The notes beneath the pieces are model-generated. The model was given only the letters and a program-made list of their open reading frames with translations, did not search any database and was not told the origin of the DNA. The position numbers and the translations under genes were made by a program. Shown here one piece after another: positions 2,131 through 50,648 of a stretch of 54,795 bases of DNA. Each line of letters begins with the position of its first letter. Within the stretch, counting starts at the first letter, position 1. Source of the DNA: Prorocentrum cordatum. Taxonomy: Eukaryota. The stretch is taken from assembly GCA_963575745.1 (NCBI GenBank), contig CAUYUJ010000209.1, positions 62,001 through 116,795 on the forward strand, written 5' to 3'.

Positions 2131-2956
2131 ATGCATTGACATGCACGTTCCCCTGCTCGCAAAGTAACTGCTAGCACATGGCCTGGATCCACCACGGGGG
2201 ATCTTCGATGCATCACGTCGAGGCGAAAATGTGTTTCTCGGACCTTTGCGAGGAGGAACTCTGCGAGCAGTGGGGCGCGCTCGGTGAATGCAGGTGCGAG
2301 GAGGGATGGCCCCTCCTCGCGCCTGCATACCGGGCGCACTCCTGCCAAGAGGCAGGGCGCAGGGCTGTGCATCCGGCGCGAGGGCCGCCGCAGTGCCTTT
2401 GCCCCCATGCCGCTGCCCCCCGCAAGGAGGAGGAGAAGCACACACAGACTGTTCTGCGCAAACTTTCTCGATGCCGTTGTGGGCGTCTCTACCCCGAGGA
2501 TCAGCACTGGCACGGTCCTGCCCGATGGAACGACACAAGCCTCTTTGGCGAGAGGGCTCGGCCAGATAGGCAACGCGACGACTTCGGCGGAGCGCGGGTG
2601 AGCAGGGGCGCTGCTGACGGGGCATATGCTCTCCCCCTCCTCCTTCCTTCCGCCCCACCGCTTCACCCCCGTTCAGCACTACGCACTGGCAGTCTGGGTG
2701 CGCTGGCGCGCTCCCTGCCCAAGAACACTGCTCGCGGCCATGCACGACTCTTCGCGCGGACCCCTCGCCTCCCCGTCCCGCTCCGCATCCCTGGAGCGGC
2801 GCGGCGGTCTGTGGACTCGCGCCAACTCGAGGGCCATGGCCACAGGAGCATCGCGGAAAAAAATGCAGAGCAACGGCAGCAGCATGAAGGCACCACCTTT
2901 CTCTTGATCCAGTTTCGCGAAGTGCGGCCCTTTCACACGCAGAGCTCTCCCTCTGC

Positions 2957-3066
2957 CTTGAAGCCGCCCAGAGTACGGACCGCGCACAACGTACAGAGCA
3001 TCGAGGGGGAAGTACGTCGAGTGCCCCTCAATGTTCCCTCCGTTGGCTTCGGCCGAAGTCCGGATC
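2957..3066 (-). CDS. Candidate exon of an unidentified gene
   Basis: acAG|G ... AAG|GC boundaries around the non-repetitive peptide IRTSAEANGGNIEGHSTYFPLDALYVVRGPYSGRLQ. Confidence 0.3.
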
Positions 3067-3991
3067 CTGTCGGCCGCGTGCCAGGCGAGGTAAGATGCGC
3101 CAGCGCTTGGGCACCTTCGTCCATAGCAACGGCCTCAGCTTAGAATGAGGACATCAACTCCTGTAGGAATGTGCCAGACATGGCGATAGGGAAACGGATA
3201 GCACGAGCGCCGCCCTTCCGCATGCCTCATCCCTCCTCGGTGTACGCTGACGCGAATCGAGCCTGAAGCGGCAACTAGGCGCCACCCAGATGCAACGATC
3301 CTCATTCGCTAGTCTGCCTCCCGCGCAACTGCATTTACAGACGCGCAACACAGATCGGAAATATCTCAACTGTTCGCGAGCGCTCGTGCTTGACAACCAC
3401 TAAGATCTACACTTGCAATCAACTGGATGTTGAAATATTACGCCACCGGAGAGCAGCATGTCCGTGAAAGCGCAGGGGAGAATGAGAAAAGGAACCGTGA
3501 ATCAATCGAGATTCTTCCCGCTCAACTCCCGCGCGAGCGTGGCGGAGGTTGTAAACGACAGCGCATCTGAATAAGAGGCTGTCGAGTACACCACGTGGCA
3601 CGAGCCATGGATCCTCGGATTTCCAAGTGAAGCCCAGAAACCTGAAAGACCCGCAGATTCCTGCAAGCCAAATAATGATGCCCATCATCAGGGTTGCATA
3701 GCAAAGATTGATGGGTCGAGGTCATGCTGAACCAGGATTCGCCGCCACGTTTCAAGAGTCTGAACATCTTCACTAATTCTCCACATGAAACATCATTGTT
3801 CTACTGATACTGACCTGGTCCTTTACCGTACCAGCATTACTGCTCTTAGTACTTGTGATCATGTTTGCTTGGGCATTACTCTGTTCTCCATACTCGAAAT
3901 ACTACTCTTACAGCTGCTACCAATTACCGTGCCCTTGCATTCCCCCTGCGTTCAATTCTCCCTTGCTATTACTTTTGCGTACCGCATGATG

Positions 3992-6432: not shown

Positions 6433-6575
6433 TGGGGAAACCACAAAGTACCGATACCGCTACCCCCCGGACCTCTCCCAGGGTGCGTTCTGACCAGAAC
6501 TTCGAACCCCGGAGGCCCAATAATAAAGGGAAAACGGCCGAAGGCTAGCGGTATGGGTACCTGTTCCTCCTCTGA
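6433..6575. mobile_element. 143-bp sibling of the intron-4 element outside the anoctamin gene
   Basis: Its start tggggaaaccacaaagtaccgataccgctaccccccggacctctcccagggtgcgttctgacca resembles 37666-37730, and its end tagcggtatgggtacctgttcctcctctga resembles 38020-38050. TSD gctct at 6428-6432 and 6576-6580. Confidence 0.85.
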
Positions 6576-17215: not shown

Positions 17216-17252
<37 letters not shown>

Positions 17253-17422: not shown

Positions 17423-17459
<37 letters not shown>

Positions 17460-17524: not shown

Positions 17525-17568
<44 letters not shown>

Positions 17569-17893: not shown

Positions 17894-17926
<33 letters not shown>

Positions 17927-17929
17927 CTA

Positions 17930-17965
<36 letters not shown>

Positions 17966-17986
17966 GTGGTGGTAGTCGTAGTAGTC

Positions 17987-18036
<50 letters not shown>

Positions 18037-18094
18037 CGTACTAGTCGTAGCACTATAGTAGTAGAAGTAGTAGTCGTAGTTGACATTAGTAGTA

Positions 18095-18168
<74 letters not shown>

Positions 18169-18183
18169 GTAGTAGTAGTAGTC

Positions 18184-18243
<60 letters not shown>

Positions 18244-18326
18244 TAGTCGTAGTAGCAGTAGTAGTAGTAGTAATACTCGTAGTAGTAGTGAAATAAGTAT
18301 AATAAGTAGTAGTAGCAGTAGTAGTA

Positions 18327-18363
<37 letters not shown>

Positions 18364-18671
18364 AAGGAGCAGTGGTGGTAGTAGTAGCCGCAGTAGAAGT
18401 AGTCGTAGTCGTAGGCGTGGTTGTAGTAGTCTTAGTCGTCATAGTGATAGTCGTAGTAGTAGTCGTAGTAGTAGTCGTAGTAATAGTAGTAGTAGTAGTA
18501 GTAGTAGTGGTAGTAGTAGTAGTAGTAGTAGTAGTAGTACTAGTAGTAGCAGTAGTAGTAATAGTAGTCGTCGTAGCCGGTGTCGTAGTCGTAATCGTGG
18601 TAGTAGTAGTAGTAGTAGAAGAAGTAGTAGTAGTGGTAGTAGTAGTAGTAGTAGTAGTAGACGTACGAGTC

Positions 18672-18709
<38 letters not shown>

Positions 18710-18830
18710 CGTAGTAGTAGTAGTAGTAGTAGTAGTCGTAGTAGTAGTAGTAGTAGTAGTAGCAGTAGTACTAGTAGTAGCAGTAGTAGTAATAGTAGTC
18801 GTCGTAGTCGGTGTCGTAGTCGTAATCGTG

Positions 18831-18867
<37 letters not shown>

Positions 18868-19008
18868 AAGTAGTAGTGGTGGTAGTAGTAGTAGTAGACG
18901 TAGGAGTCGTAGTAGTAATAGTAGTAGTAGTAGTAGTAGTCGTAGTAGTAGAATTCGTAACATCATTTGTATTAGTATTAGTAGTAGTAGTAATAGTAGT
19001 AGTCATCT

Positions 19009-19042
<34 letters not shown>

Positions 19043-19043
19043 C

Positions 19044-19097
<54 letters not shown>

Positions 19098-19130
19098 ATA
19101 GTAGTAGTAGTAGTAGTGGTAGTGGTAAGT
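16300..19130. repeat. 2.8-kb degenerate (TAG)n tract with internal block duplications
   Basis: Direct reading. The landmark gtagtgaaataa recurs at about 16868, 17607 and 18286. Confidence 0.95.
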
Positions 19131-21449: not shown

Positions 21450-21602
21450 CCTCATCATCATCATCATCATCCTCCTCTTGCTCCTCCTCCTCCCCCTCCT
21501 CCTCCGAACCCCCTGCCACATCGTCATCACAACCATCATGCTCATCATAATCAGCATCATAGTCACCAGCAACATCATCATCATCATCATCATCATCATC
21601 AG

Positions 21603-21659
<57 letters not shown>

Positions 21660-22375
21660 CAGCATCATCGTCATCATCATCATGATCAGCAGCAGCACCA
21701 GCGTCATCCTCCTCATGTTCACCATCACCATCGTCATCAGCATCGTCGTCCTCATCATCATCATCAGCAGCGTCATCGTCGTCGTCATCATCAGCATCAC
21801 GAAAGTCATCGACATCGTCATCGCAGCCACTCATCCTCATCATCAGCGGCATCATCATCACCATCATCATCAGCATCAGCAGCAGCAACATCATCATCAC
21901 CATGGACGTCGTCGTCGTCGCCAACATCACCATCACCATCATCAGAATTACCATCGTCATCACCATCACCATCCCCAGCCGTGTCATCAGCAGCGGCATC
22001 ATCAACATCATCAGCATCACCATCATCAACACCACCATCATGATCGGCATGCTCATCACCATCATCACCATCATCACCATCATCATCAGCATGATCAGCA
22101 TCATCCTCATCATCATCAACATCATCAGCAGCATCATCGTCATTGTCGAAGGCATCGTCCTCCTGCTCAGTACCTCTGCAACCTCATCCGCTTCCTTCTC
22201 CTCCACGTATTCTCCGTCTTCCTCCTGCCACCATCGCCGACATCGCCATCGCAGTCAGCATCAGCAGCAGCAACATCATCACCACATTGCGCATCGTCAT
22301 ACTTGTTATCATCCACCACCTTGTACGCATACCCATTGTCATCGTCAACATCGTCAGCATCGACAGCATCATCAA

Positions 22376-22432
<57 letters not shown>

Positions 22433-22630
22433 GATCGTCATCATCATCCTATTCTTCTTCAGCGCCAGCGTCATCAGCATCATCGTCATCATACTTATCA
22501 TCATCAGCAGCAGCAGCATCAGCGCCATCATCATCGTCAACATTACCACCATCATCGTCATCAGCATCACCAACATCAACAGCATTATCAGTACCGTCAT
22601 CACCACCATCATCAGCATCGGCATCATCAT
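21450..22630. repeat. Degenerate (CAT)n microsatellite
   Basis: Direct reading. Confidence 0.95.
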
Positions 22631-22769
22631 CAGATCCGCCTCCTCCCTCCTCCCCATGAACCACTGTTCTTGTAGATAGCCCCTCGCCCTGCCTGCCACA
22701 TCCCAAGACGTGTCGGTAAGTCGGGACGGGTGTCTCGACATGGACCACCTATGACCATGAAGTTTGGAA

Positions 22770-26945: not shown

Positions 26946-27103
26946 CTGGCCCTCCTCCTCATCCTCATCCTCCTCCTCCTGGCCCTCCTCCTCCTCCTCC
27001 TCCTCATCCTCCTCATTATCGTTATCATCAGCAGCAGCATCTGAATCATCATCATCATCAGCAGCAGCAGCATCGGCATCAGCATCAGCATGATCATGAT
27101 CAG

Positions 27104-27162
<59 letters not shown>

Positions 27163-27172
27163 TCAGCATCAG

Positions 27173-27234
<62 letters not shown>

Positions 27235-27240
27235 CCATCG

Positions 27241-27276
<36 letters not shown>

Positions 27277-27800
27277 ACATCATCATCATCATCATCATCA
27301 TCGTCATCATCAGCATCATCATCATTATCATCAGCATCAGCATCATCATCATCGGCAGCATCAACAGCATCAGCATCATCATCGACGTCATCATCATCAT
27401 CGTCGTCGTCAGCATCCTCATAATCATCAGCACCACCATCATCATCCTCATCATCATCATAATCAGTATTGCCATCATATCCACAGTCAGCATCACCAGC
27501 ATCGTCACCGTAGTCATCATAAGCATCGTCACCGCCAGCATCAGCAACAGCAGCATCATCATCAATATTACCAGCATCATCATCAACAAAATCATCATAA
27601 TCATCATCACGACCATCATCAACATAATCTTCATCATCAGCATCAGCATCATGGTCATCATCATCAACATTATCATCAGCACCATCATCGTCATCGTCAT
27701 CGTCATCATCATTATCAGCATCACCACCATCATCATCAGCACCATCGCCATCGTCATCGTCATCGTCAGTGCCATCGTCATCGTCATCGTTATCGTCGGC
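26784..27800. repeat. (CCT)n plus degenerate (CAT)n microsatellite
   Basis: Direct reading. Confidence 0.95.
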
Positions 27801-31320: not shown

Positions 31321-31923
31321 CGTGGGTCATCTTGGAGCGACACCAAGACGACGCGGACAACATCTCATGCTTGGGAGGATGTCCCTCGCAAAATCGCTAT
31401 GTTGGGCAAGGGCGGTACCAGGACGATGTCGGCAACATCTCCTTCTGAGGACGTCCCCAGTGAAATCAGCTAATCGCCATGTTGGGGAAGACCAAGACCA
31501 AAAGGTCGTCGACAACATCTCATTTTTGTGAAGACGTCCCTAGCGAAATCTCCATTGTGGGCAAGAGCGATGTCGACGATTTCCCATTTGTGTAAGGATG
31601 CCCCTGCCAAATTACAATCTGGAGAGCGGAAGAAGGGCGTCTTAGAGCCATATTGTTGGGCTATGCTGGGCCGTCTTGAGGCCTTCCGAGAGCGATCTGG
31701 TCAGCGGGGTACATAGTTGCAACTCCAGCTGCTGGCGCTGCCGCTTTTGCCCGTGCCCCTCCTCCAATTTGCCCCGCTCACAGGCACCCATGAAACGTCA
31801 TGTCAACATGCCGCCCGAGATGGTCCCCAAGATGGCCTCCAAGATGGCCCAAGGCGGTTCGCAGCAGGCGTCTTCGACCCGCCGCCCCGTTCTCCTCCTC
31901 CTCCCACGCAGCTTCCCCCTGCT

Positions 31924-32145
31924 TGAGGTGGAGCGTGGGGGGGGGAGGAACCGCCTCAGGGGGGAAAACATCGCCCCAGGATCGGCGATCCATCGCCGAT
32001 AGAGATCGACGATAGACCCCCGGGTAGCGAAGACGCACGTTCCTGGGCTGCGCGGCCTGTCGGGCTCCTGTCGGCGAGGGGCGATGAGGGGTCGCTGCCT
32101 CCCCCCCTGAGCCGATCCCCCCCCCACACACACGTCCTCCGCCGG
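31924..32145. mobile_element. Sibling of the intron-1 element
   Basis: Its start tgaggtggagcgtgg..ggaaccgcctcagggggg resembles 40902 onward, and its end gagccgatccc..cctccgccgg resembles 41252-41287. Flanks are ctgct/ccgct. Confidence 0.6.
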
Positions 32146-32829
32146 CCGCTCGGGACGAGCCGGGCGCCCCGGGAGCGCTCTCGGCGAAAGGCGCAGCTGC
32201 TGGAAAAAGCACCCCGCGGCGGAGAAAAAACCCGCGGAGAAAACCGACGGAGCGTCCGAAAGCCTCGAGCCTCGAACCCGAAACTTCCACCCTTTCTGAT
32301 GCCCATGACTGCTGCTGCACTCACGCTGGCGGACCGCCGTCGCGTACCACTGGCGCTCGCAGGCGCCCCAACCGCGGAGGCGGTCGAGGCATGGCACCCT
32401 CCGACCACCCCATCCTCCACCTCCTCCTCCACCTCCTCCTCCACCTCCTCCTCCTCCTCCTCCTCCTCCTCCTCCTGGCACTGGCACTGACGACACGTGG
32501 CTCCTCAAGGCTTTCTTGACGATGGCGGTCTCGTCCTCCTTCTTGCTGCTTCTGATCTCCTGCTTGTGGCCCTTGGAAGCTCCTGGGCGAATGGGGGACG
32601 GCCCGCACGGGTCCCGCGAGCGCGCTGGCGCGCAGAGCGGCCAGCTGCAACCCGCCTCGAACGCATCCAGATCCGTACGATTCACAAGCACAAGGCGATG
32701 TGCAGCATCGATCTCCGAAAGAAGAGCACGCTGTCCCTGTGTGAGGCGATCCCCCCGCGAGGGCCTCGTCACTGCGCACGCTATCCCAAGGCCAGGGCTT
32801 TCTCGGTGCGCACCGTCCACAATGATTTT

Positions 32830-32931
32830 TGTCATTATTACTATGATTAGTAGTATTCGTACTAGTTGTGTCATTATTGTTATTAGTATTAATATCATTA
32901 TTGTTATTATTATTATTATTAGTAGTAGTAT

Positions 32932-32975
<44 letters not shown>

Positions 32976-33080
32976 AGTTATTTTTATTATTAATAATAAT
33001 AATATTAGTATTATTATTATTAGTTGTAGTAGTAGTAGTATTAGTAGTAGTAGTATGCTTGTTATTATGATCATTATTCT
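32830..33080. repeat. (TAT)n/(TAG)n microsatellite
   Basis: Direct reading. Confidence 0.9.
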
Positions 33081-33089
33081 TATAGATTG

Positions 33090-33542
33090 TTCCCTACCTA
33101 GGCTCTGCCTAGAGGGTTCTTACTCTCTTAGCTTAAAGGGACCGGACAGTGCAAAGCGCCCCGGGCGGTTCCCCCAGTCCCCTGGGAGCGGTTCCCCCAG
33201 TCCCCTGGGAGCTTTAGCTTTAGCTTTACCTTTAGCTTTAGCTTTAGCTTATCTTCAGCTTAACTTTAACTTAGCTTTAGCTTAGCTTTAGCTTTAGCTT
33301 TAGCTGTAGCTCAGCTTTAGCTCAGCTTTAGCTCAGCTTTAGCTTAGCTTTAGGTTTGATTTAGCTTAGTTTTAGTAGCTTAGCTTTAGCTTAGCTTAGG
33401 CTTAGCTTTAGCTTAGCTTTAGCTTAGTTTTAGCTTAGCTTTAGCTTAGCTTTAGCTTAGCTTTAGCTTAGCTTTACTGTTACTATTAATGCTGCTTTCC
33501 TAGGGGCTCCAACTCCTAGGCAGGGTCGCGCTGGGATAATTT
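33090..33542 (+). mobile_element. Non-autonomous element with internal (TTAGCT/TTAGC)n satellite, copy 1
   Basis: Inverted repeats ccctacctagg...cctaggcaggg, satellite at 33211-33476. The whole unit is repeated in inverted orientation at 34078-34678. Confidence 0.8.
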
Positions 33543-34032
33543 GTTTTTATCTCTCTCTATATATATAGTGTTTGTGCACACCGTCCCCGGTGTGGGGGGT
33601 CGCGTGTGATAAGCGGCTTCGGCGGCGGGCCCCGCCGGCGCCACACCGCGCGCTGCCGTTCCAGCGCCAGCCGCGGGGAGAGACATCCTCGGAGACACCG
33701 GGCGCCGAGAGGAGGCCGCGCCGAGCGCCGAGGAGAGGCGGCCGAGACGACGGCGGCCCCACCGCTGGGCCGCCCAAGCCCGTCGCAGGCCTGCCCCCGG
33801 ACCCCCCTCCCATAGGGAGCCCACAAAGGACGTACGCACCCAGCTATGTACATGAACACGGCCCCTCGATTCGCGAGACCAGCCGCGTTATACGAACATT
33901 TGTGCAATGCGTGCTCTCGAAACCGGCGTGGATTCATGACATGTGCGTCCTTCTTTCGCTCCTGATCCCAGGGGTCCATCCTGACCCGTCCGTCGAGGCG
34001 GGTCCAGGCGTGGCGGCGAGGAGCCGGCAGAG

Positions 34033-34789
34033 TTATGTCGGGCCTGTCCCCCTACAGGGGGACTTTCGACGAAAAAGAAATTATCCCAGTACGACCCTAC
34101 CTAGGAGTTGGAACCCCTAGGAAAGCAGCATTAGTAGTAACAGTAACGCTAAGCTAAAGCTAAGCTAAAGCTAAGCTAAAGGTCAGCTAAAGCTAAGCCA
34201 CTGCTGAGCTGAAGCTAAGCTAAAGCTAAGCTAAAGCTAAGATAAAGCTAAGCTAAAGCTAAGCTAAAGGTCAGCTAAAGCTAAGCTAAAGCTGAGCAAC
34301 AGCTAAGCTAAAGCTAAGCTACAGCTAAGCTAAAGATAAGCTAAAGCTAAGCTAAAGCTAAGCTGAAGCTAAGCTGAATCTAAGCTAAAGCTAAGCTACA
34401 GCTAAGCTAAAGGTCAGCTAAAGCTAAGCTAAAGCTAAGCTAAAGCTAAGCTAAAGCTAAGCTAAACGATAAGCGAAAAGCTGAGCAAAACGCTAAGCTA
34501 AAGCTAAGCTACAGCTAAGCTAAAGCTAAAGCTAAAGCTAAAGCTAAAGCTAAAGCTCCCAGGGGACTGGGGGGAACCGCGGGGCGGGGACTGGGGGAAC
34601 CGCCCGGGGCGCTTTCCACTGCCCGGCCCCTTTAAGCTAGAGAGTAAGAACCCTTCTAGGCAGAGCCTAGGTAGGGAAAAATACACCAAAAATACCCCAA
34701 GAGAGTCAACAAATACGCAAAACATAGTCCCCCGACATCTTTTATCGTTCGTCGAAAATCCCCCTGTAGGGGGGACAGGCCCGACTTAA
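34033..34789. mobile_element. Second copy (opposite orientation) of the 24051 TIR family, with a nested TTAGCT element
   Basis: Same TIRs. Interior 34679-34746 is the reverse-complement homologue of about 24090-24170. A third left TIR starts at 34869. Confidence 0.82.
34078..34678 (-). mobile_element. Element with internal (TTAGCT)n satellite, copy 2, inverted and nested
   Basis: Reverse complement of 33090-33542 with a longer satellite (34148-34557), inserted in an A-run. Confidence 0.8.
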
Positions 34790-34951
34790 CCCTAGACCCC
34801 CTCCCAGGGGTCCCTCCTGACGCGTCCGTCGAGGCGGGTCCAGACGTGGCGGCGAGGAGCCAACAGAGTTATGTCGGGCCTGTCCCCCTACAAGGGGGAG
34901 CTTCGACGATAAATAAAAAAATACCCCAAAAAGACCCTACAAAGGTAAAAA

Positions 34952-35168
34952 TATGGGTTCCTAACGCCCCAGGGCGGGACACAGGTGAAAACACATGGTT
35001 CCTAACGCCCCAGGGCGGAGCAAGCGCGAAAACATATGGGCTCCTAACGCCCCAGGGCGGGAGAAGCGTGAAAACACATGGGTTCCTAACGCCCCAGGGC
35101 GGAGCAAGCGCGAAAACACATGGGTTCCTAACGCCCCAGGGCGGGGTAAGCCTGAAAACACATGGTCC
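34952..35168. repeat. Tandem repeat of about 42 bp, 5 copies (atgggttcctaacgccccagggcgg..gaaaacac)
   Basis: Direct reading. Confidence 0.92.
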
Positions 35169-35441
35169 TCTGTCACGTCCTGTGGCACGTCCATTGGCAC
35201 GTTCCGTAGCGCGTCCCCTTGGCACGTCCCGCGGTGCGTCCCCAAGATCGGTACATTCAGCATTACATTTGCCCGTCGCCCAATCAGGTGTCTTTGAAGC
35301 GTTGCCATGCCTTACATTTCTACATTCCCTTCCGGGTTCGTGGGTCGATTATGTTTCATAGTATTGGGATTGTCGTCTCCCCCCCCACTTCCCACATTTC
35401 CCCGTGGTTTCTGGGGGATCGACGACTCATCGTGTCTATGT

Positions 35442-35654
35442 TTTGGACGCCCGAAATGGGCACGGAAAGAATGGGTACAATGCCCAACAACAAATGTTGT
35501 CCCAAACCAGCAGCGGCTGCTGTTGGGCAGGCGGCCTTCTGTCTCGAATGGACGCAGGCCGCGGCGGCGTGGACAGCGAGTCCTGTTCAAAATGAACAGG
35601 AACTGCTGTTGGGCATTGTACCCGTTCTTTCCGTACCCATTTCGGGCGTCCAGA
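35442..35654. mobile_element. MITE with about 48-bp TIRs and 5-bp TSD
   Basis: TIR tggacgcccgaaatgggcacggaaagaatgggtacaatgcccaaca and its near-perfect reverse complement ending ccaga. TSD tatgt at 35437-35441 and 35655-35659. Confidence 0.88.
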
Positions 35655-36580
35655 TATGTTTCCCCTTCTGACACACAATGCGACCCTGCCAGCGCCTGCA
35701 GAGGCAGCCTCCCCGAGCGGCCGGCCGGCCGGCCAGGCGACGGGCCCGGCGGAGAGGCCGGGGAGAGGCGCAGGCCCCGCGCGGGCACGCGCTCGCGACG
35801 TCGGCGCCGCTCGCGGGGGCGGAGCCGGGCAGCACGAAGGATTTTTTGGACTTGCAGAGTCGCCACTCGCAAATGGCCTGGATCTGCCGCGGGGAAGGCA
35901 CGACAAACGGCACGAGGCAGACGCATATGGCTTCTCGGACGCTTGCGAGCAGGCACTCTGCGAGCAGAGGAGAGCGCGCTCGGCGAGCTTTGGGGCACCC
36001 CCAGGGCCAATCGGCCGAAACGGTGGCAGCTCATTCCCGGCGCCGTTCTTCGACCTCGGCCTCCGGGGCCCGTGCTCGGGCCGTCCTGGCCCCCTCGATG
36101 GCTGAAGCTGTGGGACGGGGGGGGGATGTCTTGCAGAGAGATCGGGGAGTGTCCGACTCTGCTGGGCGGTCTGCGGCGGATGCGCTCGGGGCAGCTTCCG
36201 TTATGCTGGTCCACGCACTGGACGGCCAAAGAAACAGTGACTGGGCTGCCGGAGCCCTCCCGTTAAAGACGCGCAGAGAAGATCTGACAAAACTGTTACG
36301 GGGCCATGAGAGACAGCGAGAGGGATCAGGGAGGCGCCTGTGCAAGGACACCCGCAGCCGAGTGCTTTTTTGACGTCTTGCCCGATAGAGAGCTTCAGAT
36401 CGGGCAGCGCGGTGCAGTGCGGCAATCCTACAGATGATGCCCGCCCTCTGCGAGGAACGGCGCGCATACCGCACAGGATGCCGCCATCCCTTCGACCCAT
36501 CCGGCGGCGCCCTTTCGAGGAGAGCCGCGGGGGACGCGCGCGGGCCAGCCGACCACCGCCTGGCAGGGCGGGCCCAGGCG

Positions 36581-37027
36581 TCACCTGGTGGGCGCGCGTG
36601 CCTCGCTCGACTCACGCCCTGCCCGCGGCGTCCTCGTGAGCTGGCCGTCCAGGCGAGGGATGGCGAGCCAGTCCTCGTTCTGCACGATCCTGCCCAGCGG
36701 GATCAAGTCCTCGACATCACAGCCTAGGTGAAGATGAACGGTTCTGTTCGTGGTGGAGGACGCGAGATTGAGGGAGGCCCCAAGCGACGGCATCCGCGAG
36801 GCCTTCTTCCCCGGGGCCGGCCCGGACTCATCGCTGGAAGCCTCTACGTCGTCGCAGTCGCCGCCTAAGCCCGAACCGCTGGAGCATGAGCCCTCGTCTG
36901 CGGCCTCGTCACCGACCAGGGCGTGACCAGCCTGATTGGACGGTCTGTGGGACGACTCTGCAGCTTGCGCGTCCATGGCGGCCTCCGTGATCACGCGGCT
37001 GGCGTAGTTCCGGCGCCTGACCAGGAC
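36581..37027 (-). CDS. Anoctamin exon 6 (C-terminal tail)
   Basis: Acceptor gcccAG|G in phase 0. Reads VLVRRRNYASRVITEA... to TGA at 36581, in the frame of ORF 36581..37219. Confidence 0.65.
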   Translation of the reverse strand, partial: VLVRRRNYASRVITEAAMDAQAAESSHRPSNQAGHALVGDEAADEGSCSSGSGLGGDCDDVEASSDESGPAPGKKASRMPSLGASLNLASSTTNRTVHLHLGCDVEDLIPLGRIVQNEDWLAIPRLDGQLTRTPRAGRESSEARAPTR

Positions 37028-40000
37028 CTGGGCACAGGCTCGAGGCGCCCGAGTCTGGTTACGCAGGGGCTCGCTTCGCCACGTCGGGCGGGCGGGGCCC
37101 CAGCGGGTGGGCCTGGCTGGCCGCCACCCCAACAAGTTGGGCCGGCGGGCCAGGAAGGCGGGCGGGCGGGCGGGCTTTCCAGCATGCGAGCGAGCTGGCT
37201 TCAACGGGTGGAGCCTCACGAGCAGCGGGTGAAACAGAAGAGGTGGGCGGCGAAGCGTCCCGGGCGGGACGATCTGGGCGAAGGGAGCTGGGCGAAGCGA
37301 GGCCCGATCGAAGCGAGCCAGGCGAAACGAGCCATGCGAAGCGAGCCTGGCAGAGCGAGCCCAGGCGAAGCGTCCCCGAGAAGCGAGCCTCGGGCAAAGC
37401 GAGCTGGGCGAAGCAAGCAGGGCGAAGCGATACCCAGGCGAAGCGCGTCTACCCGTCTATTCCCCTATGGCCTTCGCGTGTGGGGACGTTGGCGGCACGA
37501 CGATGTCCACCAGCGCCCATATGCCCGATATCAGCATGAACCACATAACGAGCCCACTAATCTTCGCGAGCAGAAGGGCGCCGTGGAAGAAACGCCCCCA
37601 CAGCACGACGAGCACCCCGGAAAAGAAAATGCCAAAGTTCATCAGCACGGTCATCACGCCCGACCTGGAGAGACCATGAAGGTACCGATCCCGCTGCTCC
37701 CCGGACCTCTCCTGGGGTGCGCTCTGACCAGGAGGCGAATCCAGCGGTGGCGACGAGGGCCTCCCAGGAGGAGGAGGAGGAGGAGGAGGAGGAGGAGGAG
37801 GAGGAGAGAAGGAGGAGGAGGAGGAGGAGGAGAGGAGGAGGGGAGAGGAGAGGAGAAGAGGGGAAGAGGAGGAGGAGGACGAGGAAGAGGAGGGGGGAGG
37901 AGAGGAGGAGGGGGAGGAGGAGGAGGAGGAGGAGGAGGAGGAGGAGGAGGAGGAGGAGAGGGAGGAGGAGTAGGCGGAGGAGGAGTAGGCGGAGGAGGAG
38001 GGGGAGAACGAGGGAGGGGTAGCGGTGGGGGCACCTTTCCCTCCGCCTGACGACCAGGCCCCCACGCCTCCGAGCTTGTGGGGGAGCGGGCGCCGCGTAA
38101 ACTTCCACGTGAGGAGCAGGGCCCGGAAGCGCAGCGCGCAGGCGAAGTGCACGAGGCACAGGGGCACCACCATGGGCTGCAGCGTCCCGAAGAGCATCAC
38201 GAAGCCCAGGCCGATGACGAGCTGGAGCATGTTCTCGATCTGCGCCCGCATGTTGAGGGCCGGCGGCGAGCGAGGGGGGGGGGAGGCGAGGAGGAGGAGG
38301 CCCTCTCGGAGGGCTCGCGCAAGTCCCCCGGCCTTCGGGGAGGTTTGCTGAGCCCTCCCCGAAGACACGGGCAGCTTCTCAGGAGGCGCGAGGGCTTCTG
38401 AAGAGTCCCGCCGCCTTCTGAGAAGGCCTTCTCCTTCTCGCTTCCCCCCTCGCTCGCCGCCGAGAAGGGCGTGTACTTCGACTGCTCCTCCAAGAATGAT
38501 CGGTGCTTCACGCTGCCGTCCTCGCTCGTGCTTTTCTGAAGCTTGTAGTCCTCCCACCGCAGCACGAGCCACACTTGCACCGCCTCGAGCACGCTGAGGC
38601 CGATGCTGCAGGCCAGAAGGATACCCACCAGCATGCTCACCTGCCTCTGCAGGGCCAGGAAGCAACCAGCCTCAGGGCAATGCCCAGACACCAGCTGGCT
38701 GAAAGCCACGGATACGCAGGGCCAATAATTGTTCACGGCCTGGAACAGAAACTGACCCCACACCCAGCTGTCATGGTAATCCTGGTCATACTTGTGATTC
38801 TCCATCTCGACGAGCCTGGCAGAAAGCGCATTGTACAGCAGCTCGGAAATCTTCACGATGATACTGAGCCACAGAGACGCAACCAGATCGAGGTCTCCCC
38901 GATGGATGTGGACCCAGGTCCCTGATATTAGCATCACCGCGGCACAGCAGACGAGAGTGATGCAGACTGACAAGACTCGCAGGCCGACTGCCGTTTTAAA
39001 AGGCGCATTCTCTTCCATAAGGTTCCCGTCGACATCCGACTTCATGAAAACGCCCTTGAAGCTCGGGCGAATGATTTGGTCGATGGCATCTTGCTCGTTC
39101 CACAGCGTCTTGAAATACTCTTCGTCTCGCCTCCACAGGTTCGCCATGACCCTCGCCCAGGCAAGTATGAGGATGGAGAACGGCATGAGCTGCCTCTCTG
39201 GGACGACCGTGCGATCCCCAAGCCGTACACCGACGTCGACCCCGAGCAGTTGCACGGCGAGGCGGACCGGAACGAACTTCAAGACGGTGATCAGGATCGC
39301 TGCCACGCTGAGGCATACCAGGCCCTTGGACCAGGGCTGAACCTAAACGGTTTTTTTGTTTTCGTTTTGTTGTCGTTTTCCCTCGCACTTGTCTCGAATC
39401 CACCTCCACCGCAAAACGAAATCAAAACGAAAACGGCCCACGAAATCGCCAAAACACCGTTTAGGTCCAGCCCTGCCTTGGACCACACGCCCTGCCACAC
39501 GAAGCCGAACGCCAGCTGCGAGCCGTAGTACTCCCCCACGAGCGGAATGGGCTGCACAAAGCTCAGGTCCGTCACCACCTCCAGCGGCGCCCAGGTGTCC
39601 CGCAGCCTGTTCAGCCACAGCTCGCTGTGGCACGGGTACCAATCTGTGACGATGCCGACGTCCTTGACAGCTTCGAGGTTGAGGAATCGTGTGAGTTCGA
39701 GCTGGATAACACGGATGCGCGCCGAGCCGCTCATGACCGAGCCTTCGACGCCACTGTCGCGGTATAGCCGGTACAGTGCCCGCTCATCAGGCTCGTCGAT
39801 TGCGTTGGCCTTGAACAGCGACTTGACGAGCCTTTGATCGTAGCGCAAGAACGGAGGCGACGATTGTGGATCCCGTGGGTCCTGAAGGATCTTAAGTCGT
39901 TCTACCACCGCGTGCGTCGTCTGGAGCTCAACGTTCCCCCGCTGGAGGTAATGTGAGACGACCTCCGGCCGGTTGAGGCTGATGCAAAGAAACAACTCGT

Positions 40001-41448
40001 CGCCATCGATAGAACTGAACAGGTTCACGGAGAAACCAAGGAGCGGCAATGACCTACACATGTCCTTCAGGACAAGGATCCTCAGCTCCCCCATAGTTAT
40101 GTCCAAGGCCTCGCCGACCGTGCTCCTGATGCGACGCAGGGCCTTCTCCGCGGCCGTGGCGCGCGACACCTTGAGATCGTGGTCTCTGATGACGGTCTCG
40201 ATCCCTTGGAAGAAGCCCTGGTCCGGCCGGTGAGCCAAGGCACCCTGCAGCATTTCGCGCGTGACGAGCTTGTCCCTGTCGTGCTGCAGCTCGTAGCTCG
40301 GATGGGGAAACACGAAAACGACGTCGGCATGCATATGGAACTTGTTTGTCGACTCCTGACTGGCATCTAGCTTCTGCGCATGGGCCGCGTCTTCCCATGT
40401 GACGCTCGACGTGGACGTGGTGGTGGCCTCGATTTGCCGCCGCCAAGCTCGAGGGGTGAGGATCTGCGCCACCGTCGCCGTCTCCGTCTTCGGCCGCGAG
40501 TGGTCGTCCCCAAAGTGATGATGCTCCTCGTGGTCGTGCGTATAGAAGAACATGAAGTATACAGTACCCCACAAGATGCCACTGACCACAATGACGGGCA
40601 GGGTCAACGTGCTGCTCGTTCGCGCCTCCATCCCTGGCATCAGCCGCTCGATAAGGTGCAGGTTTGAGATGAACATGTGCCTCATGCCAGATGGGAGCCT
40701 GCGGAAGTCGTCGATGCACTCCCTGAACCTCTGCTTCACGCCATCCACGATCGAGGCGTCGCCCTCCAAGATCGCCTTCTTCACGTCGTCGGGATCGAGA
40801 TCATGCTCATCGGGAATGTCCACGTCAACGTGGCCGGGAAGATCCGGCAGCGGAGGCTCAGTCGTGCCGGCAAGGGGAGCGCCCGCGTGCAGTCGTAGAC
40901 CTGAGGAAGAGCCGCGGGCGGGGGGGGGAACCAGCTCAGTGGGGGGGAATCAGCGATACACGTCGTTCATTTCTGATCGTGCTCATTTCTGATCGTGCTC
41001 GTCTCTAACGGTTCCTGGCCCCCCAGTGGCCAGGAAGAGGCCCAGGACAGAACCGTCAGAAATGGAAGGATCTCGACCCCCCAAAAAATTGGAGGAACTT
41101 TCGAAAAATCAGAGAGGAACAACGTGCACGTCGCCAAAACCTCGGCGATATACACCCCCGACGGAAAATCCGCACCCTCCCGGGCTTGGTAGGCTGTCGG
41201 GGCCCCGGCGGCGGAGAAAGTGGGGCCGTCGGGGGACGGGGCGCCCCCGCGGAGCCGATCTCTCCCCCCCGAGCGCGCTCCCCCCGAAGACCGCGGCGGC
41301 CCAGGAGAGCGGCCACCGCCCCGGCGGGGGGTAGCGACCCGGGCGCGGCGTGCGGCTCGGAGGCGTGCCCCGGGCCCCGGGGCTCCCCGAACGGGGCCGC
41401 CGTGCGGGCGAGGAGGCACAGCGCCAGGCACCGGAGGGAGTGCTCCAT
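36581..41448 (-). CDS. Anoctamin/TMEM16-family membrane protein, 6-exon model, about 1090 aa
   Basis: Anoctamin motifs occur in order: QPIPLVGEYYGSQLAFGFVWQG, LWRRDEEYFKTLW, IRPSFKG, ENHKYDQDYHDSWVWGQFLFQAVNNY, C..GCFLALQRQV, ENMLQLVIGLGFVMLF, RRPLPHKLGGVGAW. Exons 41448-41292, 40900-39477, 39324-38458, 38239-38055, 37664-37472 and 37027-36581 are phase-consistent and sum to 3273 nt. The exon 3/4 junction is uncertain. Confidence 0.88.
37472..37664 (-). CDS. Anoctamin exon 5 (TM9-TM10)
   Basis: Acceptor ctccAG|G, two hydrophobic segments (SGVMTVLMNFGIFFSGVLVVLWG and ISGLVMWFMLISGIWALVDIVVP), donor AAG|GC. Confidence 0.8.
37666..38050. mobile_element. TG...GA element with 5-bp TSD forming intron 4 (37665-38054, GT-AG), carrying a (GGA)n tract
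   Basis: TSD cgacc at 37661-37665 and 38051-38055. Both ends are homologous to the copy at 6433-6575. Confidence 0.85.
38055..38239 (-). CDS. Anoctamin exon 4 (TM7-TM8)
   Basis: IENMLQLVIGLGFVMLF...RRPLPHKLGGVGAW. The 5' boundary is uncertain (38239-38259). Donor TG|GT. Confidence 0.82.
38260..38463. mobile_element. 204-bp MITE interrupting anoctamin between TM6 and TM7
   Basis: Perfect 19-bp TIRs cggcggcgagcgagggggg (38261-38279 / 38444-38462). Near-TSD gaggg/gaagg. Removing 209 nt restores the frame. Confidence 0.85.
38458..39324 (-). CDS. Anoctamin exon 3 (TM1-TM6)
   Basis: Lies in the frame of ORF 38197..39306 and contains ENHK...FLFQAVNNY. The 3' boundary is uncertain (38458-38468). 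Confidence 0.85.
39332..39475. mobile_element. 144-bp hAT-like MITE forming intron 2 (39325-39476, GC-AG)
   Basis: 19-bp TIRs cagggctgaacctaaacgg / ccgtttaggtccagccctg (1 mismatch). Perfect 8-bp TSD ccttggac at 39324-39331 and 39476-39483. Confidence 0.93.
39477..40900 (-). CDS. Anoctamin exon 2 (extra TM, cytosolic N-domain, start of TM1)
   Basis: Lies in the frame of ORF 39291..40823. Acceptor tcttcctcAG|G, donor AAG|GC, contains the QPIPLVGEYYG motif. Confidence 0.88.
40902..41287. mobile_element. TG...GA element with 5-bp TSD forming intron 1 (40901-41291, GT-AG)
   Basis: TSD agacc at 40897-40901 and 41288-41292, degenerate terminal inverted repeats, sibling copy at 31924-32145. Confidence 0.8.
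41292..41448 (-). CDS. Anoctamin exon 1 (signal-peptide-like N-terminus)
   Basis: Starts ATG with MEHSLRCLALCLLARTAAPFG. The G|GT donor at 41291 is phase 1 and matches the acceptor at 40901. Confidence 0.65.
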
Positions 41449-41560
41449 GGTCGGCCGGGAGGCGCAGGGAGCTGCACGGGCGGGCTCGTGGCGTGTCCGT
41501 CGGGGTCGTTAGGTATCATGTCCTCTTCATTGCGTGGTAGAACTGCGGCATCGAGACGCG

Positions 41561-47925: not shown

Positions 47926-50648
47926 TTGTTCCTCCAGCGACGGTGGCGGCACAGTGCCGACGTGCTGAGTCGAGTCACGCTTCGGCGAATTACCACCCGG
48001 CGAAGCAGATGGGTGGTCTGGATGGGGGCAGACGCTTGCGGAAAAACGCGAAAACGCGCATGCACGTGGAAAACCGAGAGACACACAAACACTTCCCAGA
48101 TGCTTTAGCGTTGACGCAACCAGCGGTCGGGCACAGGCGCAAGCGCGCCAGCGAAACCCGAAGGAGTGTTGTGAGGAATGCGCTCGATGAGAAATACATA
48201 TGAAGAACTGTTAAAACAGAATTGCCTTGAGGTCGGCGTGGGTTTCTCGAATCGGCGCTGGATCCCATCCCTGGCGCACGGAACGTGCCGGGGGCGGCGC
48301 CGTAGGCACCGCCAGTGGGCCCAACGCCGATCCACAAAATCCGTGCGGACCTCCGAGGAAGTATGTTCATCCCGTTTTTTTGCTCGTCGACTCGAGCGCA
48401 AGCAATTTTCTCTGGGGTCGTGGGCGGGCAAGTGTGAGCAGATGGGAACAGTCGAATGAGTGCCACGCAGCGGACCTGGCAGGTGCCACGCACAACTGGC
48501 GAGACAACGGTTGCGGCAATGGGCCCGAGCGAAGCCAGGAGGAAGCGAGAGGAAGACGAGACGACCACGACGGAGCGACAAGGCGAGGCCGAAGCCAAGG
48601 AAGGCGAGAGAGAGAGAGAGAGAAGCGAACGACGACGACAACGAGGGCCAAGGAGAGGGACAGGGCTGACAAGGGCTCACGCGTCGCACCCAGCGAATTG
48701 GGAAAAGAAGCGCAGATGCCCCAGCTGCTGGACATCTGGCGGATGCTCAAACAACTGCATCGGGGAAGCCCCTTGCGGGCGCGAACGACAAGAAGTAGAA
48801 GGACAAGAACCAACCACGACGGAAGTGTCGGGAAGCGCGAAGCCCGAACGTGACGACTGGCATTCTGAGCTGCCTTAACAAATGGTGGCAACAACTGCGG
48901 CAGCCAGGCGAACAAGAGGCGCCCGCGCCAAGAAAGAGCAACCGCCCAAAAAGCGGGCCCGACTCACCGCCAGAGGGGAAAAAACAGCAGCAGCCACGGG
49001 CGTCCGACATCCAGCGTCGTGATGATTTCGCAGCGTGGCTCCGCACGAGTCTGGGCCCCCTCCTGGGAACCCGACCGTCCCAGGGGTCCCGGTAAGGGCC
49101 CCCCGTAGGCCCAAATAGCAGTTCTTGTGACAGCCGCGACGCCAGGATGTCAGGGGCCGGGAGCGGAGAAGCACGGGGCCGGTAGAGAGTCGGGCGTCGG
49201 CAGAACTGGGTTTAGAAGAACCTGGTTACGTGATCTGTACCGGGGGCGCCCCCCGTCCCATCTCCACTAACCGGAGCTGCCGTCACACGAAAAACACCCA
49301 ATTACGGCAAACCTGGTTTAGTGAATCTGGCCAATTCCAGGGCCCCGGGGCCCTACCACGAACCGGGTCCCCTTCCCCGGGGTCCTGGCTCTAACCGAGA
49401 GGGGTGCGCAGCGGAAGCTGGCCAGGGGCACAAGGGAAACAGGCGCCGCCTCGCGGCGGCCGAACGGCGGAGAGAGACTGCAGCACCCGCGGCCGCTGAG
49501 CAGGGCGCTGGGTCCGAGGCGAAGTCCTGCGAGCAGCCGCGAGGATCAGCCGAGCCGGCGGAGCAGGGGGAAGAGGCACGAGCAGAGGCGACAACAGCGA
49601 GGAGAGAGACTGGGCGCTGCGCGGAGCAGCTCATCGACATGGAAAAGCTGCCCCAAAACCTATCTGACAGACCACACGCTAACTCTTGTTCCCCTCCCCG
49701 TCCATCCCCTCACCCCTCTCTTATCCGACCATCCCATTCCAACGGTCGAGAACTGTTGTTTAGCGTGTCGCGGCGGCGGCCCCGGCGACACGCCATGCCC
49801 AGCGAGTGGACAACGTGTCGCTCCGCTCCGCGGGGCGGGAGGCTGGGAAAAGCTCGGAACGTGGACGCATGGTGACCGAGAAGTTGTCAACGTGTCACGC
49901 CGAGGTGCGGTGGGCCAGAACCGCAAGCGCAACATGATTCCACTGCTTTGTCTTACTAGTTACACTTGTTTCTATTACTATTGTTCGCCTTAGTAGCGTT
50001 GTTATCCTTATTGTTGTTCGTATGATTATGTTTGCTCGTCGATCGTTGCCCCTGGCTTTCAGGTCACACCTAGGCTCTCAGGCGGCCGTTCGGGACGATT
50101 CGAGCACCCCCAGAATGCTCTCGGCGAAGCGCAGCTGCTGGAAAACAGCCCGAGGCCAGAAACAAGCCGAGAACAAACGAACACGTCCGAAAACCGCGAA
50201 TCTCGACCCCTCGTCCTCGGGCCTTCCTGACCATTCCTTCCCCCCAGCGATGGGCCCGGGTCACCGCCGATGAGGGACGGCGGCGAGCCATCGCTCGCGG
50301 AGGGCGCGCGCGCGCGGGGGACGGGGGTTGCTGCCCCGGCCTTTCGCGCCGCGGGTGTGCAACACGTACTGCGCGCGTGCGGCCGCCTCCTCCACCTTGC
50401 GGATCTCCTGCGCGGGCAGCCGCGAGGGGGTCAATCCGCGTTTCTTCTTCGGCATTAGCTCCTCGTCGCGTCATCCCCGTCGCCCCTGGGCGCCACCTCC
50501 TCTTCCTCCTCCTCCTCCATCCTCCTCCTCCACGCCCCTCTTTATTGAGAGATTGCACGGAGGGCGGCTCCCCGCGCGCGACCCGAAGAGTTGCGGCCGC
50601 CACCCGCGGGGATGATGTCTGCGGCCCAGCGGGAGGTGCTCTGAAGGT

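What the first reader, a model, noticed from the sequence alone, without database searches (positions are those of the whole stretch)
35437..35659. A group of short elements with T[C/G]...GA termini and 5-bp TSDs that is hard to assign to a known superfamily
Seen: six insertions from four sequence families (6433, 31924, 35442, 37666, 38260, 40902) share 5-bp TSDs and ends close to TC/TG...GA. This copy has long near-perfect TIRs and TSD tatgt. Known: 5-bp TSDs occur with Transib (CAC ends) and with LTR/Ginger integrases (TG...CA), and neither matches these ends exactly. Inference: this may be an uncharacterised transposase lineage. Symmetric TC...GA members have no acceptor, while members with one TG end gain the CA(G) acceptor and can act as introners.
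Basis: inference. Interest (0 to 1): 0.75.

Follow-up and report, generated by a model that had tools for sequence, protein, structure and literature searches.

The report
Small jumping elements that become introns
These are short gene-less mobile DNA elements in a dinoflagellate-like genome that duplicate five bases where they land; several sit inside a gene and are removed exactly from its RNA, a way of making introns already known in these algae, and the enzyme that moves them is still unknown.

Summary
The observation mostly holds. The copy at 35442-35654 is a 213-bp element with near-perfect inverted ends (37 of 40) and an exact TATGT duplication. Of the six listed insertions, four have exact 5-bp duplications. 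One (38260) has a single mismatch. One (31924) could not be confirmed. An unbiased scan added a seventh candidate (2281-3341).

All six copies with a defined right end finish in ...CNGA (TCNG on the other strand).

RNA contigs from four runs skip exactly "element + 5 bases" at 37666, 38260 and 40902, all inside an anoctamin gene:
- **37666 and 40902:** GT-AG|G introns built from the duplication GGTCN plus the element's last A.
- **38260:** no usable splice sites in any register, yet it is missing exactly from the RNA.

No transposase was found in the window, in metagenome contigs or in viral contigs, and no whole genome is held. The "new transposase lineage" idea is therefore neither shown nor refuted. 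The ends fit none of Transib, Ginger, hAT or Nuwa.

Dinoflagellate introner-like elements with 5-nt duplications are already published for Polarella, so this is a new member of a known kind.

The parts
35437..35441 (.). left target-site duplication TATGT of the family D copy
35442..35654 (.). family D element (the finding): 213 bp, long inverted ends TTTGGACGCCCG... / TCTGGACGCCCG...; lies about 720 bp beyond the 3' end of the anoctamin transcript contigs; no in-place RNA evidence
35655..35659 (.). right target-site duplication TATGT
6433..6575 (.). family A copy, 143 bp, TGGGG...TCTGA, duplication GCTCT (6428-6432 and 6576-6580); subterminal inverted repeat GTACCGATACCGCTA / GTACCCATACCGCTA starting 15 nt from each tip
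37666..38050 (-). family A copy, 385 bp with an (AGG)n core, duplication CGACC (37661-37665 and 38051-38055); spliced as the 390-nt GT-AG|G intron 37665-38054
40902..41287 (-). family B copy, 386 bp, TGAGG...CCCCGA, duplication AGACC (40897-40901 and 41288-41292); spliced as the 391-nt GT-AG|G intron 40901-41291
31924..32142 (.). family B copy with a degraded or overlaid right end; 5-bp duplication not confirmed (CTGCT against CGGCC)
38260..38463 (-). family C copy, 204 bp, inverted ends CCGGCGGCGAGCGAGGGGGG / TCGGCGGCGAGCGAGGGGGG, duplication GAGGG/GAAGG (38255-38259 and 38464-38468); RNA contigs skip exactly 209 nt here with no canonical splice sites
2281..3341 (.). candidate seventh member (fifth family), 1061 bp, TCGGTGAATGCAGG... 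/ TCTGTAAATGCAGT... (18/24), duplication CGCGC; caveat: its left flank plus first 7 nt has a paralogue at 35866-35986
36372..41500 (-). anoctamin-family gene that hosts three of the elements; the spliced form has one open frame of 1110 codons across all five joints

Best explanation
**What they are.** The elements are non-autonomous cut-and-paste DNA transposons (MITE-like, gene-less). There are at least four, perhaps five, sequence families in a GC-rich dinoflagellate-like genome.

**How they move (inferred).** One transposase, or one lineage of transposases, acts in trans. It recognises tips of the form 5'-TCNG...CNGA-3' and makes cuts staggered by five bases, which leaves a 5-bp target duplication.

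**How they become introns (shown by RNA).** Every member ends in A on both strands. A copy that lands in a transcribed G-G-H-N-N target therefore builds a complete intron:
- The donor is G|GH from positions 2-3 of the upstream duplication.
- The acceptor is the element's last A plus the first G of the downstream duplication.
- Splicing removes the element plus one duplication and restores the original reading frame.

**Adaptation of families A and B (inferred).** They have replaced one TC tip with TG and a pyrimidine-rich arm. On the gene's strand this gives a Y-rich tract ending in CAG|G, so they look adapted to be introners.

**Families C and D.** They keep symmetric hairpin ends.

**The family C copy in the coding sequence.** It is also absent, to the base, from the mRNA. 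Most likely it is removed at the RNA level, with its terminal hairpin bringing the two exon ends together. This step is inferred, and no mechanism is known for it.
For: **Structure**
- Inverted ends match 37/40 (D), 20/24 (C) and 18/24 (E1). Families A and B have subterminal inverted repeats.
- Exact 5-bp duplications occur in 5 of the 7 elements examined, one more has a single mismatch, and one is unconfirmed. The chance per site is 0.0065.
- The tip is TCNG in 6 of 6 defined right ends. The chance at one place is 0.017.

**Multi-copy families**
- Families A and B each have two copies in the window.
- Many RNA contigs at 90-95% identity cover families C and D. They lose similarity exactly at 35442, 35654 and 38463, for example 10 X1 contigs at 38463.

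**No coding capacity**
- None of 193 scanned ORFs of at least 110 aa has a transposase or integrase domain.
- Those 193 are what remained of 263 ORFs after 70 low-entropy ones were dropped.

**Intron function**
- One contig of about 3.6 kb in each of X1, X5 and X8 has 0-1 mismatches and joins 37660>38051, 38254>38464 and 40896>41288.
- In X16 the first two joints lie on a 3.1-kb contig that ends at 40852, and the third lies on a separate 251-nt contig.
- The joined exons give one open frame of 1110 codons. Keeping the family C copy cuts it to 919.
- The Pfam Anoctamin profile runs 25-315 before and 327-387 after the family C copy.
- Pyrimidines make up 14/20 and 16/20 of the bases before the AG of the two GT-AG introners.

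**Hairpin**
- The RNA fold of the family C copy closes exactly at its two tips, z = -6.8.

**Context**
- Polarella has an introner class with 5-nt duplications.
- P. cordatum introns are reported as enriched in introner elements, with GT/GC/GA donors and AGG acceptors.
Against: - No autonomous copy with these ends was found, so "one transposase lineage" rests only on 4 shared tip bases and the duplication length.
- Alignment of the 13 termini shows nothing conserved between families beyond the tips.
- Families A and B have poor terminal inverted repeats (10-13 of 24), and their left ends start TG, not TC.
- The 31924 copy shows no duplication.
- The E1 candidate has a paralogous left flank that runs 7 nt into it.
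- Cut-and-paste movement itself is inferred. No empty site or excision footprint was seen.
- For the family C copy, all runs were contigs. I saw no DNA run and no contig that keeps the element in place. An identical gene copy without the insertion could therefore give the same joint.
Confidence: 0.8

Rival explanations
1. The group belongs to a superfamily that is already described, and only looks unassignable because the copies are non-autonomous. Candidates are PIF/Harbinger relatives (HarbS/Nuwa-like), the 5-bp branch of hAT, or the CACTA-Mirage-Chapaev-Transib clade with RAG1-like enzymes.
For: - The supplement table of Gozashti et al. [quoted passage not shown]
- hAT is cited with 5-8 bp duplications and Ginger with 4-5 bp (PMC4482050 passage).
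- Earlier notes of this scan report many RAG1-fold transposases in this genome (unchecked AI notes).
Against: - The tips here are TCNG. NuwaI/II inverted repeats start GG(G), and their targets are CWG or C|TNA|G.
- None of the six duplications (TATGT, CGACC, AGACC, GCTCT, GARGG, CGCGC) fits those targets.
- CAC... (Transib/CACTA), TGTNR (Ginger) and YARNG (hAT) tips, as I recall them, are not present either.
- The one clear hAT-like element in the window (39332-39475, CAGGGCTG, 8-bp duplication) looks different.
Confidence: 0.5
2. The families do not share an enzyme. The common 5-bp duplication and similar tips are a coincidence between two or more unrelated mobilisation systems. For example, A/B could be derived from integrase-type elements (TG start) and C/D/E1 from a DDE transposon.
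For: - The left tips of A and B start TG, like integrase substrates, and their terminal inverted repeats are weak.
- No sequence is conserved between families beyond four bases.
- The Polarella paper stresses several mobilisation machineries in one genome.
Against: - The right tips of A and B are TCAG and TCGG, the same as C, D and E1.
- A and B end in ...GA, not ...CA, and have subterminal inverted repeats.
- All copies with defined ends have the same duplication length.
Confidence: 0.15
3. The exact 209-nt gap at 38255-38463 in the RNA contigs is not RNA processing. The transcripts would come from an identical allele or paralogue that never received the family C insertion.
For: - All four runs are assembled contigs. 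No DNA run held more than 36% of the sampled words, so the DNA state in the RNA-producing cells is unknown.
- The joint equals the pre-insertion sequence.
- Dinoflagellate genes are often multi-copy (general knowledge).
Against: - The contigs match the window with 0-1 mismatches over about 3.5 kb in four studies.
- The other four introns of the same gene are removed in the same molecules.
- Earlier notes of this scan report the same exact, signal-less removal at two other genes of this genome (unchecked).
- The element folds so that its tips pair, as in the Amoebophrya and euglenid cases.
Confidence: 0.3

Closest known systems
Introner-like elements of dinoflagellates (Polarella glacialis classes, notably class 12 with 5-nt duplication; Symbiodinium 4-nt class). 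Roy et al., preprint 10.1101/2020.10.14.339549, passages read. The Curr Biol 2023 version was seen only as a reference.
   Same: - Short inverted-repeat elements in many copies.
- A fixed duplication length for each class.
- One splice site carried by the element and the other taken from the duplication.
- GT/GC/GA donors and AG|G acceptors.
- A 5-nt class exists.
   Different: - Class 12 is described as starting with C and using NAGGH/NNAGG targets for the acceptor.
- Here the elements start with T and end with A, and the target is GGTCN. The acceptor is element-A plus duplication-G.
- The species is different. No sequence comparison was possible because the supplements of the preprint are closed.
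Non-canonical introner elements of Amoebophrya A25/A120 (Farhat et al. 2021, PMC7789003, passages read), and nonconventional introns of euglenids (review PMC11282704, passages read)
   Same: - Inverted repeats of 8-20 nt and direct repeats of 3-5 nt at the borders.
- A hairpin that brings the exon ends together.
- No fixed dinucleotides at the borders.
- Exact removal of element plus one repeat. The family C copy at 38260 behaves in this way.
   Different: - Those cases are in a parasitic early-branching dinoflagellate that appears to lack U1 snRNA, and in euglenids.
- This genome looks like a core, free-living dinoflagellate whose other introns in the same gene are G[T/C]-AG|G.
- RNA-level removal is not proven here.
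PIF/Harbinger relatives NuwaI / NuwaII (Han et al. 2015, PMC4482050, passages read). This is the tentative label given to 5-bp-duplication Polarella introners in Gozashti et al. 2025, supplement file 8.
   Same: - Inverted-repeat DNA transposons.
- NuwaII flanks can be read as a 5-bp CTNAG duplication.
- This is the only published superfamily label attached to dinoflagellate 5-bp introners.
   Different: - The duplications here have no CWG or CTNAG pattern.
- The tips are TCNG, not GG(G).
- No Myb/SANT or DDE gene was seen.
Transib / RAG1-like, Ginger, hAT (5-8 bp branch) and solo LTRs
   Same: A 5-bp target duplication is possible in each.
   Different: - The tips expected for these groups (CAC..., TGTNR, YARNG, TG...CA; recalled, not taken from a call) are not present.
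- Long hairpin-forming inverted ends argue against solo LTRs.

Membership tests
MITE-like non-autonomous inverted-repeat DNA transposon | terminal inverted repeats | tested here: met
   D 37/40, C 20/24, E1 18/24. Families A and B have only subterminal repeats and weak tips (10-13 of 24).
MITE-like non-autonomous inverted-repeat DNA transposon | target-site duplication of constant length | tested here: met
   5 bp exact in 5 of 7 elements, one mismatch in 1, unconfirmed in 1. RNA joints equal element + 5 at three sites.
MITE-like non-autonomous inverted-repeat DNA transposon | multi-copy, no coding capacity | tested here: met
   Two copies each of A and B in the window. Other copies of C and D occur in RNA contigs. 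No Pfam transposase in 193 ORFs scanned.
MITE-like non-autonomous inverted-repeat DNA transposon | autonomous partner with the same ends | not testable with these tools
   No whole genome is held. Metagenome and viral scans gave only chance seeds.
Introner (intron-generating transposon) | the insertion is removed from mRNA as an intron that restores the frame | tested here: met
   Joints of 390, 391 and 209 nt in RNA contigs of four runs. Open frame of 1110 codons across all joints.
Introner (intron-generating transposon) | splice sites carried by the element and/or co-opted from the duplication | tested here: met
   Met for 37666 and 40902: G|GTCN donor from the duplication, element A plus duplication G as acceptor. 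Not met for 38260, where no G[T/C/A]...AG register exists.
Transib | 5-bp duplication | tested here: met
Transib | CAC... termini (recalled) and a RAG1-like transposase | tested here: not met
   The tips are TCNG or TG. The transposase part is not testable because no autonomous copy is available.
PIF/Harbinger NuwaI / NuwaII | CWG or C|TNA|G target; inverted repeats starting GG(G) (PMC4482050) | tested here: not met
   The duplications are TATGT, CGACC, AGACC, GCTCT, GARGG and CGCGC, and the tips are TCNG.
hAT | 8-bp (5-8) duplication; short inverted repeats starting YARNG (recalled) | tested here: not met
   The length of 5 bp is within the cited range, but the tips differ. A typical hAT-like MITE in the same gene has CAGGGCTG and 8 bp.
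Ginger / LTR integrase substrates | TG...CA ends (TGTNR for Ginger, recalled) | tested here: not met
   All right ends are ...GA. Only families A and B start TG.

The most novel reading that the evidence does not exclude
The TCNG...CNGA elements with 5-bp duplications are moved by a transposase lineage that has not been described. Copies that carry no splice signals at all, like the one at 38260, are still cut out of the mRNA of a core, free-living dinoflagellate. That removal would use a hairpin-guided route independent of GT-AG, of the kind so far reported only for Amoebophrya and euglenids.
Probability: 0.25. Interest if true: 0.7.

Novelty: new member of a known kind. Interest (0 to 1): 0.4.

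Why it matters
Introners are the best current explanation for bursts of intron gain, and dinoflagellates are the richest case.

**What this window shows.** One gene holds three members of a 5-bp-duplication group plus a hAT-like element, all removed exactly from the RNA. This shows how one terminal base (A) and a GGH target are enough to make an intron.

**What would follow if confirmed.**
- A transposase behind the TCNG tips would give a name to a class of dinoflagellate introners that published tables still list as unknown or only tentatively as PIF/Harbinger.
- If the signal-less copy is really removed at the RNA level, core dinoflagellates would share with Amoebophrya and euglenids a way to neutralise insertions without splice sites. 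That would also mean gene models built on GT/GC/GA-AG rules are wrong at such places.

Tried and rejected
- **Metagenome scan.** A scan with a 17-mer of the family D end gave 75 loci. None matches the element beyond 24 nt and none has a second inverted match, so these are chance seeds.
- **Viral-contig scans.** The family D end gave 0 loci. The family C end gave 4 loci with only the seed matching.
- **Earlier findings by sequence or by relatives.** Families D and C and the 30.4-42.4 kb stretch gave nothing. A word look-up for TCGG/CCGA gave nothing.
- **Empty-site reconstruction from paralogues inside the window.** This failed.
  - E1's left flank has a paralogue (35866-35986), but its right flank does not.
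  - For the 31924 copy, the right side has a paralogue (50065-50253) but the left flank does not.
- **Coding remnants in the 1061-bp E1.** Six-frame translations look like random GC-rich reading.
- **Alignment of 13 termini across families.** It showed no shared subterminal motif.
- **RNA contigs at 31924 and 35442.** Contigs gave no in-place cover or joint at either. A part without cover says nothing either way.
- **De novo scan at a loose inverted-repeat threshold (15/24).** It is no better than shuffled sequence: 5 hits against 2 and 0 for 5-mers with T...A ends. Only the two hits with at least 18/24 were kept. Three repeat-rich regions were masked in that run.
- **Literature.** Four searches turned up no description of TCNG...CNGA tips with 5-bp duplications. 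None of the searches could query the motif itself, so this is weak evidence of absence. The supplements of the bioRxiv preprint are closed.

Full report
**What the window is**

The 54.8-kb window has 58% G+C and is full of microsatellites and satellites. It carries a eukaryotic anoctamin-family gene on the minus strand (Pfam PF04547, E = 9e-27). No whole genome is held for it.

Earlier AI notes of this scan call the genome a Prorocentrum-like dinoflagellate (unchecked). The G+C agrees with the 59.7% reported for P. cordatum. That paper also reports introns "enriched in introner elements", donors GT 24.7 / GC 51.4 / GA 23.8%, and AGG acceptors in 79.7% (PMC10666404, passages).

**The focal element**

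- Element 35442-35654 is 213 bp long.
- Its two ends are inverted copies: 22/24 and 37/40 ungapped, and 93.9% over 49 nt by BLAST.
- As single-stranded DNA it folds into one long hairpin (-85.5 kcal/mol, z = -14.3).
- It is flanked by TATGT on both sides.
- The repeat can be stretched to TATGTTT if the element's first two T are counted. The other arm reads TCTGG where this one reads TTTGG, which puts the boundary after TATGT.
- Other copies of the family exist in transcriptomes and lose similarity exactly at these tips. An X8 contig stops matching at 35442, and two X5 contigs diverge after 35654. Up to 13 contigs of one run cover its interior at 90-95% identity.
- The copy lies about 720 bp beyond the 3' end of the anoctamin transcript contigs. 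No RNA contig shows it transcribed or spliced in place.

**The other five insertions**

- **Family A:** 6433-6575 and 37666-38050. The copies are 83% alike over the first 66 nt, and similarity starts and ends at the proposed tips. Duplications GCTCT and CGACC are exact.
- **Family B:** 40902-41287 has an exact AGACC.
- **Family B, second copy (31924):** it shares the left end and interior. By homology its right end is near 32142, where the flank is CGGCC against CTGCT on the left. That side runs into another repeat shared with 50065-50253. Its duplication is not confirmed. The CTGCT matches further right lie in a CTG-rich stretch.
- **Family C:** 38260-38463 has 20/24 inverted ends and GAGGG/GAAGG, one mismatch.

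The tally is 4 of 6 exact, 1 of 6 with one mismatch, and 1 of 6 unconfirmed. Two fixed 5-mers in this window agree with probability 0.0065.

**A seventh candidate**

I scanned for any exact k-mer duplication around an inverted-repeat pair, with shuffled controls. Three repeat regions were masked. The stricter filter removed the focal copy because its repeat is extendable. One search, without that filter, recovered it.

The scans found one more element, 2281-3341:
- It is 1061 bp long.
- Its ends are TCGGTGAATGCAGG... and TCTGTAAATGCAGT... (18/24).
- Its duplication is CGCGC.
- Its left flank plus first 7 nt has a paralogue at 35866-35986, so I list it as a candidate only.

**Shared ends**

Read inward, the right ends are TCTG, TCAG, TCTG, TCAG, TCGG and TCGG. 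That is TCNG in 6 of 6 copies with a defined right end, from five families. The chance of TCNG at one place is 0.017.

- The left ends of C, D and E1 are the same motif with point changes (CCGG, TTTG, TCGG).
- The left ends of A and B start TG (TGGG, TGGA, TGAG).
- Beyond the tips nothing aligns between families.

The scan has therefore seen this group before on other DNA, and my window agrees with it.

**What the RNA shows**

Twenty of the 24 listed runs hold about a third of the sampled words of 31501-41500, which looks like the exon share. I laid four of them, from four studies.

In X1, X5 and X8 one contig of about 3.6 kb, with 0-1 mismatches, joins:

| Joint | Bases skipped |
|---|---|
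| 37026>37471 | 444 |
| 37660>38051 | 390 |
| 38254>38464 | 209 |
| 39323>39476 | 152 |
| 40896>41288 | 391 |

In X16 the first four joints lie on one 3.1-kb contig that ends at 40852. The fifth lies on a separate 251-nt contig with 57 letters on its shorter side.

The joined exons give a single open frame of 1110 codons, 1093 from the first ATG. Keeping the 209-nt piece cuts the frame to 919. The Anoctamin profile continues across it, 25-315 before and 327-387 after.

Three of the five gaps are exactly element + 5: 385 + 5, 204 + 5 and 386 + 5.

- **Families A and B (37666, 40902).** The only canonical register is GT...AG on the minus strand. The duplication there reads GGTCG and GGTCT. The intron begins at its second base (G|GTCG..., G|GTCT...). 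It ends with the element's last A plus the first G of the downstream duplication (...CTCTCCAG|G...TTCCTCAG|G). The last 20 bases before the AG are 14/20 and 16/20 pyrimidines. The TG end of these families thus provides a tract plus CAG.
- **Family C (38260).** The mismatch in the duplication leaves three registers, TC..TC, CT..CT and TC..CC. None has a G[T/C/A] donor or an AG acceptor. As RNA the element folds with its two tips paired (-145 kcal/mol, z = -6.8). The exon ends are brought together, with the 5-nt duplication left as an overhang.
- **The other two introns.** They fit GC-AG|G one base off the register printed by the tool. One of them is a separate hAT-like MITE (see the notes in passing).

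**How to read the family C joint**

There are two readings.
- **RNA-level removal without splice signals.** This has been described for the inverted-repeat/direct-repeat introners of Amoebophrya (PMC7789003 passages) and for the nonconventional introns of euglenids (PMC11282704 passages).
- **Transcripts from an identical gene copy that lacks the insertion.**

I could not separate them. All runs were contigs, no DNA holder was offered, and the tool did not report the joined form in other runs.

Two earlier notes (e1-7695820, e1-7695824) report the same exact, signal-less removal in two other genes of this genome. That makes an empty twin at every locus less likely, but those notes are unchecked. 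I put RNA-level removal at about two in three.

**Which transposase**

None of 193 ORFs of at least 110 aa has a transposase or integrase domain. Those 193 are what remained of 263 after 70 low-entropy ones were dropped. Scans of metagenome and viral contigs with the family D and C ends gave only chance seeds. The ends can therefore be compared only with descriptions.

- **NuwaI/NuwaII.** They have CWG or C|TNA|G targets and GG(G) tips (PMC4482050 passages). Neither feature is met here.
- **Transib, Ginger, hAT and LTR.** The tips, as I recall them, are not met either.
- **Closest published match.** This is functional rather than taxonomic: the introner-like elements of Polarella, which include a class with 5-nt duplications (preprint passages).
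- **Published labels.** In the supplement table of Gozashti et al. [quoted passage not shown] Most dinoflagellate families are "Unknown". Prorocentrum does not occur in the 12 of 14 supplementary files that were searched.

**Verdict**

- The group is real, and its intron-making mechanism is shown for two copies.
- The kind of element is already known in dinoflagellates.
- The same group was already noted elsewhere in this genome by the scan.
- The claim of a new transposase lineage stays open.
- The unexpected item is the signal-less exact removal of the family C copy.

Noticed in passing
window 39324-39483: A separate hAT-like MITE (39332-39475, ends CAGGGCTGAACC.../CAGGGCTGGACC..., 8-bp duplication CCTTGGAC) interrupts the same anoctamin gene. 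RNA contigs of four runs skip exactly 152 nt (144 + 8). The only canonical register is GC...AG|G, made from the last G of the duplication plus the element's first C.
   Followed up: partly
window 37027-37470: Another intron of the gene (444 nt) fits GC-AG|G with a 3-nt repeat (AGG) at its borders. It contains a 14-nt tandem array (37270-37445). Whether it is transposon-derived is unknown.
   Followed up: no
window 37661-38050: The family A intron is 390 nt (130 codons). If it were kept it would read through without a stop, giving an open frame of 1240 codons instead of 1110, so retention would add a low-complexity insert rather than break the protein.
   Followed up: partly
window 33091-34677: A large foldback of about 1.6 kb. 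Its arms start TTCCCTACCTAGGCTCTGCCTAGAGGG... and contain inverted arrays of an 11-nt unit (TTAGCTTTAGC, 24 and 37 copies). The central part (33505-34172) has the deepest RNA-contig cover of the laid stretch. The ends look like CCCTA...TAGGG, but no TTAA duplication is present.
   Followed up: partly
window 2171-2287 and 35866-35986: A paralogous block of 117 nt (about 78% alike) ends at ...GCGCGCTCGG(T/C)GA in both places. That is 7 nt inside the candidate element E1 in one place, and in front of a TCGGCGAGC... stretch in the other. I cannot say whether this is a preferred target, an older repeat or part of a longer element.
   Followed up: partly
window 32125-32329 and 50065-50253: A further interspersed repeat (about 75% alike over 200 nt) abuts the right side of the 31924 copy. 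This is probably why that copy has no recognisable duplication.
   Followed up: partly
window 12854-13810, 16301-19127, 21519-22632, 27004-27768: Very long trinucleotide arrays occur: (CAT)n of 0.96 and 1.1 kb, (TAG)n of 2.8 kb and (TCA)n of 0.76 kb. The (TAG)n block drops the local G+C to 40%.
   Followed up: no
window 13934-15057 and 51461-52377: A 77-nt satellite (unit containing GGGCCACGAAACGCTGTACTGGG) is present in two arrays in opposite orientation, 36 kb apart.
   Followed up: no
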